Numbered from the stretch's first letter, positions 1,119 to 29,133 are shown. The stretch is DNA of 64,000 nucleotides from Pyrinomonadales bacterium (GCA_038254305.1 JBBSGG010000005.1:13044-77043); one strand, 5' to 3'. The notes: a model not told the origin generated them from the sequence alone. A program made the numbers and translations.

Positions 1119-3035
<1,917 letters not shown>

Positions 3036-3061
3036 AACTGATCAACTTCATGGTATACAAG

Positions 3062-3089
3062 CGGCCGGTTCACCCCGGCCGTTTTTTTT
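3062..3089 (+). terminator. Intrinsic terminator after the S8 protease gene
   Basis: cggccgg-ttcacc-ccggccg hairpin followed by T8. Confidence 0.85.
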
Positions 3090-3547
3090 GCGCTAAAAAA
3101 AGGCTTGGAATATTTTATTTGGCGCATATCGCAAAAAAATCGCGGCCGTGCTGTCTATTATTATTCATCGATATTTTCAACGGGCGGCCTACGATTTATT
3201 TTTGGAATTCCCGCCCATTGACTATGTAGTTAAGTATTCACAATGGATAGGCACGTGTTCTCGTATTGCGAGGTCCGACAACGAGCTACGCAACTGGTAG
3301 GAAGACAACCCTTTAGAGCGAACACGGGCGGCGGAATTTAGAACGTAGCGGCGGGAAGAATTTAGGCAAGAAATATCTTGACAATGATCATTCGTTCTGT
3401 TAAACACTATCTATCCCTAATTTTATTTTCGTTCAGAACTGCGGGTAAAGGTACGTTCACTAGCGAAAATTTGTGGAAATGTTCCACCTTTGGACATTTA
3501 TGCAAAGATCGACTAATGTGCCGCCCGGTTAATTTACAGGAGTTAAA

Positions 3548-6610: not shown

Positions 6611-6901
6611 TTAGACAAGCATCGAATTACCTTGGTTTTTCGGGTCGTAACGCACACCGATCTTCGCGCCAGGTGCATAGCGAAGCGGATCGCGCCGCTG
6701 CTCATCATCGAGCATCTCCGAGGATTCGAAATCAACGCCATTCAGCGTATAGACGTAATAGACGATCTCTTCGCCGCGGCTTGTCGTATCGTTATCGATT
6801 ATTTTCCCGTCTGTTATGCGGCCCTGGGTAAGCAGGAGCCGTTTGCGCTCCGTGTGCGGATCGGTCGTCTCCTTTTTTTTGAACAGCCGGAAAATACCCA
6901 T
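6611..6901 (-). CDS. Hypothetical small protein (DUF3592-like beta-rich pattern)
   Basis: 96-aa ORF co-directional with and tightly spaced to its neighbours. The pattern GKIID...YYVYTLNG...GAKIGVRYDPKNQGNS resembles DUF3592. Confidence 0.45.
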   Translation of the reverse strand: MGIFRLFKKKETTDPHTERKRLLLTQGRITDGKIIDNDTTSRGEEIVYYVYTLNGVDFESSEMLDDEQRRDPLRYAPGAKIGVRYDPKNQGNSMLV

Positions 6902-6903
6902 CG

Positions 6904-7329
6904 CTAATCCATCACCAGCGGCGTTTTGTTGTACCTTGCGCGAAGGTCATTCGCTACAGCCAGTATGACCGGGCGTTTTATTATCCTGGCTTCGAACGGC
7001 CGTTTACCCGGAATATCCATTAAGATAAGGCCGATCAGGATGGTCAGAATTCCCTGTCCCGGTCCGATCAGCATCACGATCCCGGCAAGCACAAGGATCA
7101 CACCGGCGATATTTTTTGCGATGACCGCGCCCCAACGTGTTAGCCACGGAGAGTTCGGCAAAAAATCCGCCTGGTAGTGCGAACTAAAATAATTTTCGGG
7201 AATTTTGACGATCACCAAACCCACGATCAAGCTGCTGCCGACGATCGAAATAATGAACAGCGCCGCGCCAAGCGCCAGCCGGCCCCATGTCAGCGATTCC
7301 GAGAGCCGATGGACCAGATCCGTTATCAC
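6904..7329 (-). CDS. PGPGW-type small integral membrane protein
   Basis: Hydrophobic segments and the IGPGQGILTILIGLILM motif. 4-nt overlap with the upstream gene. Confidence 0.55.
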   Translation of the reverse strand: MITDLVHRLSESLTWGRLALGAALFIISIVGSSLIVGLVIVKIPENYFSSHYQADFLPNSPWLTRWGAVIAKNIAGVILVLAGIVMLIGPGQGILTILIGLILMDIPGKRPFEARIIKRPVILAVANDLRARYNKTPLVMD

Positions 7330-25232: not shown

Positions 25233-25385
25233 AATGGCGCAGAAGGCGTGAACGGGCTTTGGTGGTAAGCTTCCCGTCAACTAGAAGGTTTATCATTTTA
25301 AAGATGCGTGTGCAAGAAAATCGGCGTTTCGGGCGCGGATTTTGCGTTCTTTCCATCACCGCGTATCAAAGTTAGAATTCTTTCA

Positions 25386-25901
25386 ATGGGCAAAATGGAC
25401 GAATCAATGGCCGAAATGCACGAAACGTGGATGCGGGCCGCACTTACCGCTGCCGGCGAAGCCGCGAATGCGGGCGAAGTGCCCATCGGCGCCTGTATCG
25501 TCTCGGCATCCGGAGAATTGCTCGCGTCGGCGTTCAACTTGACGGTCGAAAACAGCGATCCGACCGCGCACGCGGAGATACTCGCCATACGTGACGCCGC
25601 CGCGTCGCTCGGGAATTATCGACTTACGGGAGCGACACTCTACACAACGATCGAGCCATGCGTAATGTGCGCCGGTGCGATCCTAAATGCACGCATCTCG
25701 CGTCTTGTATTCGGCGCCCGTGACGAAAGATTCGGCGCCGTCGAAAGCCATTTTCAGCTTTGTGATTCAGCCATACTCAATCACCGGCTTGAGGTGGTTT
25801 CGGATATACTTTCCGCCCAAAGCCGCGAGATGATCCAGCAGTTCTTTCGGCGAAGGCGCTCCGAAATACGTGCCATACGCGAAACTCAAAGCCTAACTTG
25901 A
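25386..25901 (+). CDS. tadA: tRNA-specific adenosine deaminase
   Basis: Deaminase zinc motifs HAEILAIRDA and PCVMCAGAI. The start is uncertain: in-frame ATGs at 25386, 25395 and 25407, and the listed ORF starts at GTG 25308. Confidence 0.85.
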   Translation: MGKMDESMAEMHETWMRAALTAAGEAANAGEVPIGACIVSASGELLASAFNLTVENSDPTAHAEILAIRDAAASLGNYRLTGATLYTTIEPCVMCAGAILNARISRLVFGARDERFGAVESHFQLCDSAILNHRLEVVSDILSAQSREMIQQFFRRRRSEIRAIRETQSLT

Positions 25902-25940
25902 TATTTTCCGGGCTGAACCTTTAGAATTGAAGGTTCGCGC

Positions 25941-26031
<91 letters not shown>

Positions 26032-26039
26032 GTAGTTTT

Positions 26040-26130
26040 GGAAAGGTGCAAGAGCGGTTGAATTGGCAGCATTGGAAATGCTGTGAACCTCAAAAGGGTT
26101 CCGTGGGTTCGAATCCCACCCTTTCCGCCA
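26040..26130 (+). tRNA. tRNA-Ser (anticodon GGA)
   Basis: Acceptor GGAAAGG/CCTTTCC, anticodon loop TT-GGA-AA, long variable arm, same T-arm as the first tRNA-Ser, encoded CCA. Confidence 0.9.
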
Positions 26131-26317
26131 GAATTCGGTGGAGAAATGAGCGGTAAGCGGTGAGCAGTATTTCCTGCTTACTGCTATCGACTCACTGCTA
26201 CCGGCATATGGCTTCAGGCTCCGCACAAGGTTTGAGTTGTGAACTCCGCTAGGCGAGGAATCGAGCAACGGTAGCGATTTCAGCCTGTGTTGCGGGTAAG
26301 TCTGAAGCCACCAATTC
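26131..26317 (+). ncRNA. ffs: Signal recognition particle RNA candidate (S-domain hairpin 26210-26309 plus 5' hairpin enclosed by a terminal helix)
   Basis: Long hairpin with apex CGCU-AGG-CGA-GGAA-UCG-AGCA-ACGG. This reproduces the conserved helix-8 pattern of 4.5S/SRP RNA (AGG / GGAA tetraloop / AGCA). It lies immediately upstream of dnaX, as in many bacteria. Confidence 0.6.
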
Positions 26318-26397: not shown

Positions 26398-28188
26398 ATG
26401 TCTTACCAGGTAATTGCGAGAAAATGGCGGCCGAAGACCTTTGACGAGGTCACAGGGCAGGAGCATATTACCCGCACGCTGCGCAATGCCATCGAGCATG
26501 ACCGGCTTCACCACGCGTACCTTTTTTCAGGTGCCCGCGGCGTCGGCAAAACGACTACCGCCCGCTTGCTCGCCAAAGCTCTGAACTGTCGAAAGACCGA
26601 TAAAGCCAACGTTTTTCCGTGTGACACGAGCGACGCGGATGCGTGTCCGTCGTGCATTGAGATCTCCGAAAGTCGTTCGATCGACGTGTTCGAATTTGAC
26701 GCGGCTTCGAACACGCAGGTCGAAAAAATCCGCGAAATAATCCTCGAAAGCATCAACGTCGCACCTGCCCGCGACCGTTACAAGATCTTCATCATCGACG
26801 AGGTACACATGCTCTCGCAGTCATCGTTTAACGCGCTGCTCAAGACGGTCGAGGAGCCGCCGCCGCAGGTGGTGTTCATCATGGCAACGACAGTGCTGCA
26901 TAAGGTGCCGGACACGATTCTTTCACGGTGTCAGCAGTTCGAATTCCGGACGATCTCCAATCAAAAGATATTTGACCGGCTGAAGCTGATCGCCGATGCC
27001 GAAGGTATTCCAGCATCTGACGACGCCTTGCGCGAAATTGCACGTTCCGGCGAAGGGTCGATGCGTGACGCGCAGTCGAATTTCGATCAGGTGATCAGTT
27101 TTTCGGGAGAAAAAATAGGCGCCGCCGACGTGTCCGCGGCCCTCGGTATCGCCGGCAGCGATATGATCGCCAAAGTGCTGCGCGCGATCGCTGATAAGCA
27201 GCCGCTCGCGGCTCTCGAAGTGGTCGACGAACTTATTACGCTAGGCCACGATCTCCGAAATTTTGCCCGCGACCTGTTAGGCCTCTTTCGTGACCTGCTG
27301 GTTTTCAAGGTCGGCGGTGGAACCGAGGGCTTGATCGAAAGCTCGATCTTTAACGCGGAGCAGATGCGTGAACATTCAGCCGCGTTTTCCGAAAGCGATT
27401 TTCTCCGTTTTTTCAATTCGCTTGCCGAAACAGAATCGAAGCTCAAAGAAGCCACGCAGCAACGTTATGTACTCGAGATCGGCTTGGTAAAGTTGATCGA
27501 GATGCGGCGTTCGCTCGCGATCGAAGACGTTATCGCCCGCCTTTCGCTTCTCGAAAAGGGCTTGCCCGAACAAACAGTCGCGCCGGCGAATACCGAACGA
27601 GCTCGCACCGGCGCCGCACAGGAAAAAAAAACTTTAATTCCTGAGATCAAGCCGCCTGCCGCCGTCGAAGAGCTGCCGGAAGAACCGAAAGACCTCTTTC
27701 GCAGCGATTCGGCATCGGAGATCGAATCTGAAACTGCCGAAAAACCTCCCGACCCGACGGTATCAAAGTTCGATCTCAGCTTTCTCGATTCGATGCCGAC
27801 GAGGCTGTCATCGATCGAAGCCGGAGAGCTCGAACACGTCGACGACACGTGGCTCGACAATGCTTTTGAACTCAAATTGATGCGAAGCGGCGACGATCTC
27901 GGACGTTTGCCCGGAGTGTCACAGTTTCTGAAGGCTGCGGAGAATACTCCATCGACGCTATCCACTCTTCCCAGCGCCGTTCGATCCAACGGAAATGGCT
28001 CAGCCGCCGCGATCGCAGCCGATTTCACCAAGCAGATCCCGGAGCCTGAAGAGATATCGACAGAGATTCCCGAACTGCCGGAAAATCCTACCTACGATCA
28101 GCTTCTCGCCTACGCTCAATCCCATCCGCTGGTTAGGCAGGCTTTACGCGTTTTCCGCGGTAAGATCGTCGGCGTAAACAAGGCCTGA
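26398..28188 (+). CDS. dnaX: DNA polymerase III subunits tau (and possibly gamma)
   Basis: AAA+ clamp-loader motifs GARGVGKTT, IFIIDEVHML and SRC (ILSRCQQF), plus a Zn module CDTSDADACPSC. Confidence 0.95.
   Translation: MSYQVIARKWRPKTFDEVTGQEHITRTLRNAIEHDRLHHAYLFSGARGVGKTTTARLLAKALNCRKTDKANVFPCDTSDADACPSCIEISESRSIDVFEFDAASNTQVEKIREIILESINVAPARDRYKIFIIDEVHMLSQSSFNALLKTVEEPPPQVVFIMATTVLHKVPDTILSRCQQFEFRTISNQKIFDRLKLIADAEGIPASDDALREIARSGEGSMRDAQSNFDQVISFSGEKIGAADVSAALGIAGSDMIAKVLRAIADKQPLAALEVVDELITLGHDLRNFARDLLGLFRDLLVFKVGGGTEGLIESSIFNAEQMREHSAAFSESDFLRFFNSLAETESKLKEATQQRYVLEIGLVKLIEMRRSLAIEDVIARLSLLEKGLPEQTVAPANTERARTGAAQEKKTLIPEIKPPAAVEELPEEPKDLFRSDSASEIESETAEKPPDPTVSKFDLSFLDSMPTRLSSIEAGELEHVDDTWLDNAFELKLMRSGDDLGRLPGVSQFLKAAENTPSTLSTLPSAVRSNGNGSAAAIAADFTKQIPEPEEISTEIPELPENPTYDQLLAYAQSHPLVRQALRVFRGKIVGVNKA
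27622..27644 (+). other. Putative programmed slippage site in dnaX (A9 run with nearby stops in both alternative frames)
   Basis: GAA AAA AAA ACT, with nine A at 27623-27631. The -1 frame reads AAC TTT AAT TCC TGA. The +1 frame reads CTT TAA. Confidence 0.5.
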
Positions 28189-28272: not shown

Positions 28273-29133
28273 ATGATCGTAACGCCGTGGTTCGCAAAAC
28301 TTAGATATTCGTTCGCCCTCGGGCTGGCCGTTCTTCTCGCCGGTGCCGCGGCGGCCCAATCTCCGGCGACCGAATCTCCGCTGCCTGCACCGACCGGTTT
28401 TATTAACGATTACGCCGGCGTCCTCGACGCGTCGACAAAACAGGCACTCGAAACAAAGCTCACCGATTTTAAGGCAAAAAGCTCGCCGTCTACAGAACTC
28501 GCGGTCGCGATCATCAAAACTACAGGCGACCGTCCGATCTTCGACTATTCACTTGCGGTCGCACGCGGCTGGAAGATCGGTTCAAAACTCGACGATAACC
28601 CGAGTGCACTGCTTTTGATCGCAGTCGACGACCGGAAATATTTCACGCAAGTAAGCCGCGATCTCGAAGACGAACTTCCCGACGGTCTCGTCGGCAGTTT
28701 GCAGCGGCAATATCTTGTTCCCGAATTCAAACAGGCAAATTACGCGAAAGGCGTCTCGGACACGATCGACGCGTACATTCGTACGATCGGGGAGCGGCGT
28801 GCCGGCGGTCCTCAGCCCGCTTTCTCGGCGACACCGGTTCCAACGGGCGGACGGCAAGGTCAACAGTCGTTCCCAAGTCTCCTGTGCTGCCTCGGTGTCG
28901 GCATTCTGCTCGCATTTATCTTTATCTCAAGAATGGGCCGAGGCGGCCGCGGCGGTGGTGGCGGTGGCCTGGGCAGCGCCCTGCCGTGGATAATCGGTTC
29001 GATGATCGCAAATTCCGGCAGCTCGTCGGGCGGCTGGGGCGGCGGCGGCGGCGGCAGCGGTGGCAGTGGAGGCTTCGGCGGTTTCGGCGGCGGCGGCGAT
29101 TTCGGCGGAGGCGGAGCCGGCGGCAGTTGGTAA
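28273..29133 (+). CDS. TPM-domain (YgcG-like) protein with TM segment and Gly-rich tail
   Basis: Signal peptide. FINDYAGVLD...ELAVAIIKTT...LLLIAVDDRKYF is typical of the TPM phosphatase-like domain. C-terminal GGGGSGG low complexity. Confidence 0.75.
   Translation: MIVTPWFAKLRYSFALGLAVLLAGAAAAQSPATESPLPAPTGFINDYAGVLDASTKQALETKLTDFKAKSSPSTELAVAIIKTTGDRPIFDYSLAVARGWKIGSKLDDNPSALLLIAVDDRKYFTQVSRDLEDELPDGLVGSLQRQYLVPEFKQANYAKGVSDTIDAYIRTIGERRAGGPQPAFSATPVPTGGRQGQQSFPSLLCCLGVGILLAFIFISRMGRGGRGGGGGGLGSALPWIIGSMIANSGSSSGGWGGGGGGSGGSGGFGGFGGGGDFGGGGAGGSW

What the first reader, a model, noticed from the sequence alone, without database searches (positions are those of the whole stretch)
27622..27644. 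A9 slippery run in dnaX, positioned to make a gamma-like truncated clamp-loader subunit
- **The run:** codons E409-K410-K411 are GAA AAA AAA, followed by ACT. This gives nine consecutive A at 27623-27631.
- **Location in the protein:** just after the conserved clamp-loader domains and at the start of the Pro/Glu-rich tau linker.
- **Alternative frames both stop almost at once:** the -1 frame reads AAC TTT AAT TCC TGA, giving about 415 aa. The +1 frame reads CTT TAA, giving about 412 aa. The full-length protein is 596 aa.
- **Precedent:** E. coli dnaX makes gamma by -1 ribosomal frameshifting at A AAA AAG. Thermus thermophilus dnaX uses transcriptional slippage on an A9 run. The geometry here matches the Thermus solution.
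- I am not aware of this having been shown for this lineage.
Basis: partly seen in the sequence, partly recalled or inferred. Interest (0 to 1): 0.65.

Follow-up and report, generated by a model that had tools for sequence, protein, structure and literature searches.

The report
Conserved A9 slippage site in dnaX
A run of nine A's in the DNA-replication gene dnaX of a soil acidobacterium is kept letter-for-letter across a whole deep clade with stop codons waiting in both other reading frames, so it is very probably a programmed slip site that makes a short (gamma-like) clamp-loader subunit as in Thermus, though no RNA or protein data exist to prove it.

Summary
dnaX (26398-28188, +, 596 aa) carries A9 at 27623-27631 (GAA AAA AAA ACT). 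It is the only homopolymer of 8 nt or more in coding sequence in the window. A10 gives ...EKKNFNS* (415 aa) and A8/A11 gives ...EKKL* (412 aa).

The site is under nucleotide-level selection:
- Seventeen sequences (protein identity 50-85%, gene GC 37-61%) from one deep monophyletic Pyrinomonadaceae clade all carry GAAAAAAAAACT.
- Of 169 invariant-amino-acid degenerate columns, only these four codons are codon-invariant.
- This 12-mer is the only invariant nucleotide run of 8 nt or more in the gene.
- The +1-frame stop is immediate in 14/17 (p~1e-14). The -1-frame stop is within 4 codons in 14/17 (p~8e-8).
- 'EKKT' is invariant in 120 homologues inside a hypervariable linker.
- No conserved downstream hairpin or upstream SD element exists.

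The site lies ~35-40 residues past domain III, as in E. coli gamma. A sister Pyrinomonadaceae clade and other Acidobacteriota lack it.

Best reading: Thermus-type programmed transcriptional slippage, possibly with some -1 ribosomal frameshifting on A_AAA_AAA, making a ~46 kDa gamma. No RNA runs exist, so the mechanism and the product are inferred. I found no earlier report for Acidobacteriota. This is a new member of a known kind.

The parts
26398..28188 (+). dnaX, full-length tau-like product (596 aa, 65.7 kDa)
   Evidence: ORF. Pfam finds PF13177, PF22608 and PF12169. Residues 1-400 align to E. coli DnaX 1-390 in PDB 8giy/8gj0/1jr3. Mass.
27622..27633 (+). 12-nt invariant cassette GAAAAAAAAACT (codons E409 K410 K411 T412); A9 slip-prone run at 27623-27631; also a canonical in-frame A_AAA_AAA heptamer at 27624-27630
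   Evidence: Identical in 17/17 clade members. These are the only 4 codon-invariant columns among 169 invariant-amino-acid degenerate columns, and the only invariant nucleotide run of 8 nt or more in the gene. The probability of this codon choice from each gene's own usage is ~1e-24 over 14 sequences.
27635..27637 (+). TAA stop in the +1 frame (read in A8 or A11 transcripts); product ...EKKL*, 412 aa (A11: EKKKL*, 413 aa)
   Evidence: A stop at this exact position occurs in 14/17 relatives against a null of 6.5% (p~1e-14). The Leu codon is always YTR, and YTG is always followed by A.
27642..27644 (+). TGA stop in the -1 frame (read in A10 or A7 transcripts, or after a -1 ribosomal shift); product ...EKKNFNS*, 415 aa, 46.1 kDa
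   Evidence: The -1-frame stop is within 4 codons in 14/17 and within 9 in 17/17, against a null of 20% (p~8e-8).
27634..28185 (+). tau-only C-terminal region lost in the short product: hypervariable Pro/Glu-rich linker, then conserved blocks at aa ~461-500 and ~561-596
   Evidence: Conservation profile over 120 homologues. No Pfam domain reaches significance.
26212..26310 (+). SRP RNA (ffs) immediately upstream of dnaX; context only
   Evidence: Rfam RF00169, 63 bits.

Best explanation
The A9 run is a programmed recoding site that lets one gene make two clamp-loader subunits.

**Shown**
- The 12-nt GAAAAAAAAACT, and a stop codon shortly after it in each of the two other frames, are held by purifying selection at the nucleotide level throughout a deep Pyrinomonadaceae clade.
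- The site lies ~35-40 residues after domain III of DnaX.

**Inferred**
- While transcribing the nine A's (T's in the template), RNA polymerase lets the all-A:T hybrid realign. This yields a population of mRNAs with A8, A10, A11 and so on.
- Transcripts with 9 or 9+3n A's give full-length tau (596 aa).
- All other transcripts terminate within 1-4 codons, giving a ~46 kDa gamma-like protein (412-415 aa). It keeps the ATPase and collar domains I-III but lacks the conserved C-terminal tau modules.
- A minor contribution from -1 ribosomal frameshifting on the in-frame A_AAA_AAA heptamer would give the same 415-aa product and cannot be excluded.
For: - **Unique synonymous-site constraint.** In a 17-sequence codon alignment (pairwise identity 50-85%), only E409-K410-K411-T412 are codon-invariant among 169 invariant degenerate columns. 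GAAAAAAAAACT is the only invariant run of 8 nt or more.
- **Codon choice against background.** The codons are the same across gene GC from 37 to 61%. Their joint probability from each gene's own codon usage is ~1e-24.
- **Fixed length.** The run is exactly 9 in 17/17. 'EKKT' with exactly two K is present in all 120 homologues inside an otherwise hypervariable linker.
- **Both alternative frames are closed.** The +1-frame stop is immediate in 14/17 (p~1e-14). The -1-frame stop is within 4 codons in 14/17 (p~8e-8). Leu is always YTR and YTG is always followed by A. The residue after EKKTL always starts with A or G in 111/111 proteins. A -1 ribosomal shift alone would not need the +1-frame stop, whereas slippage that adds or removes 1 or 2 A's needs both.
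- **E and T extend the run.** The invariant E (GAA) and T (ACT) lengthen the run from the 7 A's a ribosomal heptamer needs to 9, which matches the Thermus run length.
- **No ribosomal stimulators.** Downstream 70 nt folds give z-scores from -1.75 to +1.45, and the flanks share nothing beyond ~15 nt.
- **Single origin.** Carriers form one deep monophyletic clade.
- **Position.** The site is analogous to the end of E. coli gamma.
- **Real DNA sequence.** A9 appears in four independent assemblies.
- **Thermus precedent.** Thermus has an A9, a ~1:1 tau:gamma ratio and stops in both frames.
Against: - There is no direct evidence. No RNA run holds this organism or the two relatives tried, and there are no protein data.
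- Whether acidobacterial RNA polymerase slips on A9, and how often, is unknown.
- The sister clade and the rest of the phylum lack any such site. Gamma is therefore not generally required in this phylum.
- One member (L081) has the +1 frame open for 65 codons, and the EKKTS subclade has that stop 6 codons away. The +1-frame stop is therefore not absolutely required.
- The invariant T at the third position of Thr412 is not explained by either stop.
- The p-values treat sequences as independent, although they share ancestry.
Confidence: 0.65

Rival explanations
1. The short product is made mainly by -1 programmed ribosomal frameshifting on the in-frame A_AAA_AAA heptamer, as in E. coli dnaX, from a uniform A9 mRNA.
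For: - The heptamer is in the correct X_XXY_YYZ phase in every clade member.
- The -1-frame stop is conserved.
- Thermus dnaX was first read as a translational frameshift site and still carries such a signature.
Against: - This model does not explain the conserved +1-frame stop (14/17).
- It does not explain the invariance of the two extra A's supplied by GAA and ACT.
- No conserved downstream stem-loop or upstream SD-like stimulator is present.
- In E. coli, A_AAA_AAA is much less shift-prone than A_AAA_AAG (PMC5009743), yet AAG is never used here in 17/17.
Confidence: 0.17
2. The conserved feature is a peptide motif (EKKTL) in the tau linker, such as a partner-binding or protease-recognition site like the ClpXP processing of Caulobacter DnaX. 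The A-run is a by-product of that motif.
For: - EKKT[L/S] is invariant at the protein level in 120 homologues.
- Proteolysis is a known third route to gamma.
Against: - Peptide-level selection cannot fix synonymous positions. All four codons are invariant across GC3 from 24 to 75%, while the other 165 invariant-residue columns vary.
- The Leu codon is restricted to YTR and covaries with the next base so that a +1-frame stop is kept.
Confidence: 0.05
3. The run is selected at the nucleotide level for some other reason and makes no functional short protein. Examples are a DNA- or RNA-level signal, a pause site, or a regulatory slip site that merely lowers tau output.
For: - The invariant flanking G and CT, which neither stop requires, hint that more than the A-run is constrained.
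- There is no direct evidence for a gamma protein.
Against: - The conserved stops in both alternative frames, right after the run, are what one expects if the truncated products matter, or at least if long out-of-frame tails must be avoided.
- The position at the domain III/linker boundary matches gamma in E. coli.
Confidence: 0.1
4. A chance homopolymer, a sequencing artefact, or a DNA-level phase-variable tract.
For: None beyond the fact that homopolymers are error-prone in sequencing.
Against: - The iid expectation is 0.08 per window.
- A9 is identical in four independent assemblies with no indel and in 17 divergent genomes.
- dnaX is an essential replication gene, so heritable frameshifts in it would be lethal (established knowledge).
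Confidence: 0.01

Closest known systems
Thermus thermophilus dnaX programmed transcriptional slippage (Larsen et al. 2000, as described in PMC1088944, PMC5009743, PMC4320859)
   Same: - Tau is encoded in a single ORF.
- The sense strand carries a run of exactly nine A's after the clamp-loader core.
- Stop codons lie close by in both non-zero frames, so every non-3n length variant yields a short gamma.
- No need for ribosomal stimulators is evident.
   Different: - The lineage is unrelated (Acidobacteriota, Blastocatellia versus Deinococcota), so the origin is evidently independent.
- The stops are tighter here: 1 and 4 codons, against 2 and 16 in Thermus.
- A 12-nt G-A9-CT is invariant here, not only the A-run.
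- The Thermus case is experimentally shown, and this one is not.
E. coli / enterobacterial dnaX -1 ribosomal frameshifting (A_AAA_AAG with an upstream SD and a downstream stem-loop)
   Same: - The gene is the same.
- The outcome is the same: gamma ends a few tens of residues after domain III, with a stop 1-4 codons into the new frame.
- An in-frame Lys-Lys heptamer is present.
   Different: - The heptamer here is A_AAA_AAA, inside a 9-A run.
- No SD-like element or stem-loop is conserved.
- The +1 frame is also closed.
Two-ORF dnaX with A10 (or A7-A9), where tau needs the slip (Antonov et al. 2013, PMC3711429)
   Same: A poly-A slip site lies at the same domain boundary of dnaX, and it was predicted from genomes alone.
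   Different: - There, the zero frame stops after the run and recoding is needed for the long product.
- Here, the zero frame encodes tau.
- Examples of the two-ORF layout were seen in passing (L150 and L160, A11).
Caulobacter crescentus DnaX processing by ClpXP
   Same: It yields tau and shorter gamma forms from one gene.
   Different: It is post-translational and needs no nucleotide-level signal. The synonymous constraint seen here argues against that route.

Membership tests
DnaX (DNA polymerase III gamma/tau clamp-loader subunit) | AAA+ ATPase module, lid and domain III (collar) in the DnaX arrangement | tested here: met
   Pfam PF13177 (1.8e-39), PF22608 and PF12169. Residues 1-400 align to E. 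coli DnaX 1-390 at E~1e-77. The synteny tadA - tRNA-Ser x2 - SRP RNA - dnaX is present.
Thermus-type dnaX programmed transcriptional slippage | Homopolymeric A run of slippage-prone length (about 9) in the sense strand, within a single tau ORF, after the clamp-loader core | tested here: met
   A9 at 27623-27631, codons 409-412 of 596. Domain III ends at about aa 371-380.
Thermus-type dnaX programmed transcriptional slippage | [quoted passage not shown] | tested here: met
   The +1-frame stop comes after 1 codon and the -1-frame stop after 4 codons. These are conserved in 14/17 and 14/17 (17/17 within 9 codons for the -1 frame).
Thermus-type dnaX programmed transcriptional slippage | Evolutionary conservation of the run beyond what the protein sequence requires | tested here: met
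   These are the only codon-invariant columns in the gene, and the 12 nt are invariant in 17/17. p~1e-24 from codon usage.
Thermus-type dnaX programmed transcriptional slippage | mRNA population heterogeneous in A-run length while the DNA is uniform | not testable with these tools
   The DNA is uniform in four assemblies. No RNA run is available for the window, L006 or L007.
Thermus-type dnaX programmed transcriptional slippage | Two protein products (tau and gamma) in vivo | not testable with these tools
   No proteomic or western data are accessible. The predicted sizes are 65.7 kDa and 45.7-46.1 kDa.
E. coli-type dnaX -1 programmed ribosomal frameshifting | X_XXY_YYZ heptamer in the zero-frame phase | tested here: met
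   A_AAA_AAA is in phase in all clade members.
E. coli-type dnaX -1 programmed ribosomal frameshifting | Conserved stimulators: an internal SD about 10 nt upstream and a stable stem-loop a few nt downstream | tested here: not met
   The flanks are not conserved. Downstream 70-nt folds are no more stable than shuffles (z from -1.75 to +1.45) and have no common structure.

The most novel reading that the evidence does not exclude
A whole deep clade of soil Acidobacteriota (one of the two main branches labelled Pyrinomonadaceae) independently evolved the Thermus solution for making gamma, and has kept a 12-nt G-A9-CT cassette with both off-frame stops ever since. Its sister clade does without.

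Together with the similar A9-A11 runs seen here in Fibrobacter, Neomarinimicrobiota, Melioribacteraceae and Geobacterales, this would mean two things:
- Homopolymer-driven transcriptional slippage is a common route to two DnaX forms that has arisen repeatedly.
- Earlier surveys missed it systematically. Baranov 2005 excluded truncation-type sites, and GeneTack only sees split ORFs.

The invariant flanking G and CT would then be part of a tuned slippage signal rather than passive context.
Probability: 0.4. Interest if true: 0.6.

Novelty: new member of a known kind. Interest (0 to 1): 0.5.

Why it matters
- **Purpose of gamma.** Why bacteria make both tau and gamma has been debated for over 30 years. 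Each independent invention of a way to make gamma is evidence that the short form is selected. Here, a clade that carries the site and a sister clade that lacks it give a natural comparison.
- **Method.** Truncation-type slippage sites were thought hard to call from sequence (Baranov 2005). This case shows they can be recognised by synonymous-site invariance combined with conservation of both off-frame stops.
- **Annotation.** dnaX in this clade should carry a second product (gamma, 412-415 aa). The run should not be 'corrected' or flagged as a sequencing error in MAGs.
- **RNA polymerase.** It predicts that acidobacterial RNA polymerase slips efficiently on A9.

Tried and rejected
- **RNA evidence.** I searched public runs for the window's dnaX (any kind and RNA) and for two relatives (L006, L007). 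I found only DNA metagenomes kept as contigs, plus one run of unknown kind (X5) that shows A9 in a single contig. Transcript heterogeneity could not be assessed.
- **Larsen et al. 2000 (PMC26496).** The paper is not held. Thermus details were taken from PMC1088944, PMC5009743 and PMC4320859.
- **Ribosomal frameshift stimulators.** I looked for a downstream hairpin and an upstream SD element and found none conserved.
- **Pfam on the tau-only C-terminus.** No significant domain was found, so I could not name the tau modules that are lost.
- **Alternative recoding signals in the non-A9 sister clade.** I looked for in-frame heptamers and homopolymers and found nothing consistent.
- **Rejected readings.** Chance or assembly error, a peptide-motif-only explanation, and DNA-level phase variation, since dnaX is an essential gene and the run length is fixed.
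- **Not attempted.** I did not identify a cultured member of the A9 clade. No named isolate appeared among the 80 genome loci.

Full report
**1. The observation**

The sequence at 27620-27644 reads AG GAA AAA AAA ACT TTA ATT CCT GAG. The only long ORF covering it is 26398..28188 on the + strand, 596 aa. Position 27622 is the first base of codon 409, so the codons are E409 (GAA), K410 (AAA), K411 (AAA) and T412 (ACT).

Editing the run confirms the predicted products:
- A10 gives ...EKKNFNS* (415 aa).
- A8 gives ...EKKL* (412 aa).
- A11 gives ...EKKKL*.
- A7 gives ...EKNFNS*.

The protein is DnaX. Pfam finds PF13177, the DnaX lid PF22608, and domain III PF12169 at aa 241-371. The protein is identical to a 'DNA polymerase III subunit gamma/tau' from a Pyrinomonadaceae MAG (Acidobacteriota, Blastocatellia).

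The run is the only homopolymer of 9 or more in the 64-kb window, against an iid expectation of 0.08. The two T8 runs in the window are non-coding terminator-like tails. Contigs from four independent public metagenome runs from four different studies show the same A9 without any indel, so the run length is real.

**2. Is it more than a chance Lys-Lys?**

In a MAFFT alignment of the 120 best homologues (56-68% identical to the query), the motif E-K-K-T is invariant. It is followed by L in 111 of them. The 30-40 residues on either side are hypervariable in both sequence and length.

I fetched DNA for relatives from GTDB species representatives, from JGI/ENA metagenomes, and by exact-protein look-up. 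Seventeen sequences including the window carry the run. All seventeen read GAA AAA AAA ACT, always exactly nine A's, at codon 398-416 of genes 565-698 codons long.

These genes range from 37% to 61% GC (GC3 24-75%). Outside the site they use AAA for as few as 22% of Lys codons and ACT for as few as 3% of Thr codons. The joint probability of the observed codon choice, given the amino acids and each gene's own usage, is about 1e-24 for 14 sequences.

A codon alignment of all 17 (pairwise protein identity 50-85%, median 59%) gives the cleanest result:
- Of 169 columns where a degenerate amino acid is invariant, only four are also codon-invariant.
- Those four are the consecutive codons 409-412.
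- GAAAAAAAAACT is the only invariant nucleotide stretch of 8 nt or more in the whole gene.

Selection therefore acts on the nucleotides, not on the peptide.

**3. The off-frame stops are selected too**

- **+1 frame** (read by A8 and A11 transcripts). The stop comes right after one Leu codon in 14/17. The per-gene null is 6.5%, giving a binomial p~1e-14.
- **How the +1-frame stop is kept.** The zero-frame Leu codon is always YTR (14/14, against 52% elsewhere). The next base is always a purine, and YTG is always followed by A (7/7).
- **Protein-level check.** At the protein level, the residue after EKKTL is I, T, K, N, V, S or A in 111/111, which is always compatible with a first base of A or G.
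- **-1 frame** (read by A10 and A7 transcripts, or after a -1 ribosomal shift). The stop lies within 4 codons in 14/17 (null 20%, p~8e-8) and within 9 codons in 17/17. It is usually the same NNT GAN position.
- **Exceptions.** L081 has the +1 frame open for 65 codons. The 'EKKTS' subclade (L161, L162) has that stop 6 codons downstream.
- **Caveat.** The p-values ignore shared ancestry. At this divergence, however, synonymous sites elsewhere in the gene are clearly randomised (mean modal-codon fraction 0.60).

**4. Distribution**

A neighbour-joining tree of the N-terminal 372 residues places all A9 carriers in one deep monophyletic clade. Its sister is a large clade also labelled Pyrinomonadaceae. 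That sister clade has a Ser/Thr/Gly/Pro-rich linker, no A-run and no consistent slippery heptamer. More distant Acidobacteriota (other Blastocatellia, Chloracidobacterium, Vicinamibacteria, Terriglobia) also lack the run. The simplest reading is a single origin at the base of the clade followed by strict retention.

**5. Position in the protein**

Residues 1-400 align with E. coli DnaX 1-390, including the 431-aa gamma chain of PDB 8giy. The short products would end ~35-40 residues after domain III, as E. coli gamma does.

They would lack 181-184 residues. The lost region includes two blocks conserved among homologues, aa ~461-500 and ~561-596. No Pfam family matches this region. Predicted masses are 65.7 kDa for tau and 45.7-46.1 kDa for the short forms.

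**6. Mechanism**

Two known mechanisms could use this sequence.

*Transcriptional slippage.* This is the mechanism shown for Thermus thermophilus dnaX. There, an A9 in a single tau ORF gives mRNAs of variable A-run length. Stops in both other frames, 2 and 16 codons downstream, give two gamma forms at about 1:1 with tau (PMC1088944; PMC5009743; PMC4320859).

*-1 ribosomal frameshifting.* This would act on the in-frame A_AAA_AAA heptamer, as at A_AAA_AAG in E. coli.

Five observations favour slippage:
- The +1-frame stop is conserved, which a -1 ribosomal shift does not need.
- The invariant GAA and ACT codons extend the run from the 7 A's a heptamer needs to 9.
- AAG is never used, although A_AAA_AAG is the far shiftier heptamer, at least in E. 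coli.
- The length is fixed at 9. That is the length at which selection against runs in coding regions appears in many bacteria.
- No downstream stem-loop or upstream SD-like element is conserved. Folds of the 70 nt downstream are no more stable than shuffles, with z from -1.75 to +1.45.

None of this excludes a ribosomal contribution, and the two routes give the same 415-aa product. I could not test the decisive prediction, RNA length heterogeneity. No RNA run holds the window's gene or those of two relatives.

**7. Comparison with what is known, and novelty**

The anatomy meets every sequence-level criterion of the Thermus-type system (see the membership table). The two experimental criteria are untestable here. 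It fails the stimulator criterion of the E. coli-type system.

The literature searches found:
- the Thermus case;
- the enterobacterial frameshift;
- the two-ORF A10 type in about 12 genera (Antonov 2013);
- Caulobacter proteolysis.

They found nothing for Acidobacteriota. The only paper holding 'dnaX', 'Acidobacteria' and 'frameshift' that deals with recoding is Antonov 2013. The passages I read from it describe only split, two-ORF dnaX genes.

Baranov 2005 explicitly left truncation-type sites out of its survey as hard to judge, and GeneTack detects only split ORFs. Single-ORF sites like this one would have escaped both. I therefore rate this as a new member of a known kind. It is well supported comparatively and unproven experimentally.

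**8. Unexplained**

The T at the third position of Thr412 (ACT, 17/17) and the G before the run are invariant, yet neither stop requires them. They may tune slippage or fix the C-terminal residues of the short products (Leu, or Asn-Ser/Phe).

**Verdict**

- Confidence that this is a selected recoding site is ~0.9.
- Confidence that it yields a gamma-like DnaX is ~0.8.
- Confidence that transcriptional slippage is the main route is ~0.65.
- Interest is moderate at 0.5. It is a clean, independently evolved second example of the Thermus design in a major soil phylum, with a sister clade that lacks it for comparison. It is not a new kind of mechanism.

Noticed in passing
L038:1501-3285, L044:1501-3216, L055:1117-2853, L057:1501-3228, L126:301-2043: Five Geobacterales/Desulfuromonadales dnaX genes carry an A9 much later, at codon ~530-542 of 571-594. 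The -1-frame stop follows after 1-2 codons past the Lys codons (EKKKP*, EKKNS*, KKKRE*) and the +1-frame stop within 12-15 codons. L044 even reads GAAAAAAAAACTCTTGA, like the Pyrinomonadaceae cassette. Slippage there would remove only the last ~40 residues of tau. Other relatives in the sample (L037, L039, L041-L043, L048, L051) lack the run.
   Followed up: partly
L073:1501-3180 (Neomarinimicrobiota), L077:1501-3234 (Fibrobacter), L053:1501-2844 (Melioribacteraceae), L136, L142: Other phyla show A9-A10 runs right after domain III (codons 378-398) of single-ORF dnaX genes. In L053, L073 and L077 both alternative frames close within 4-11 codons, and in L136 and L142 within 5-8 codons. The Thermus-type design therefore seems to recur widely.
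   Followed up: partly
L150:301-1473, L160:301-1473: In these dnaX genes the zero frame stops just after an A11 run (390-aa ORF), and the tau continuation is open in the -1A/+2A frame. This is the two-ORF layout described by Antonov et al. 2013, where the long product needs the slip.
   Followed up: partly
L009-L022, L085-L105 (sister Pyrinomonadaceae clade): The sister clade's DnaX has a Ser/Thr/Gly/Pro-rich linker with no homopolymer and no consistent slippery heptamer. Whether it makes a gamma at all, for example by proteolysis, is open.
   Followed up: partly
window 25308-26310: The upstream neighbourhood holds a deaminase-like ORF, probably tadA (25308-25901), then tRNA-Ser(CGA) at 25941-26030, tRNA-Ser(GGA) at 26040-26130, and the small SRP RNA at 26212-26310, directly before dnaX. 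A TPM-domain gene follows dnaX here, and also in L161-L163.
   Followed up: partly
window 3060-3090 and 6873-6880: T8 runs. The first follows a GC-rich hairpin (ggccggttcaccccggccg-T8) just after the ORF 1119-3035, which is a typical intrinsic terminator. The second lies between short ORFs, just downstream of the minus-strand ORF 6904-7329.
   Followed up: partly
window 28950-29130 and the overlapping frames: The protein encoded downstream of dnaX (28273-29133) ends in a long Gly-rich tail (GGRGGGGGGLG...GGWGGGGGGSGGSGGFGG). This produces several long shadow ORFs in other frames and on the other strand.
   Followed up: no
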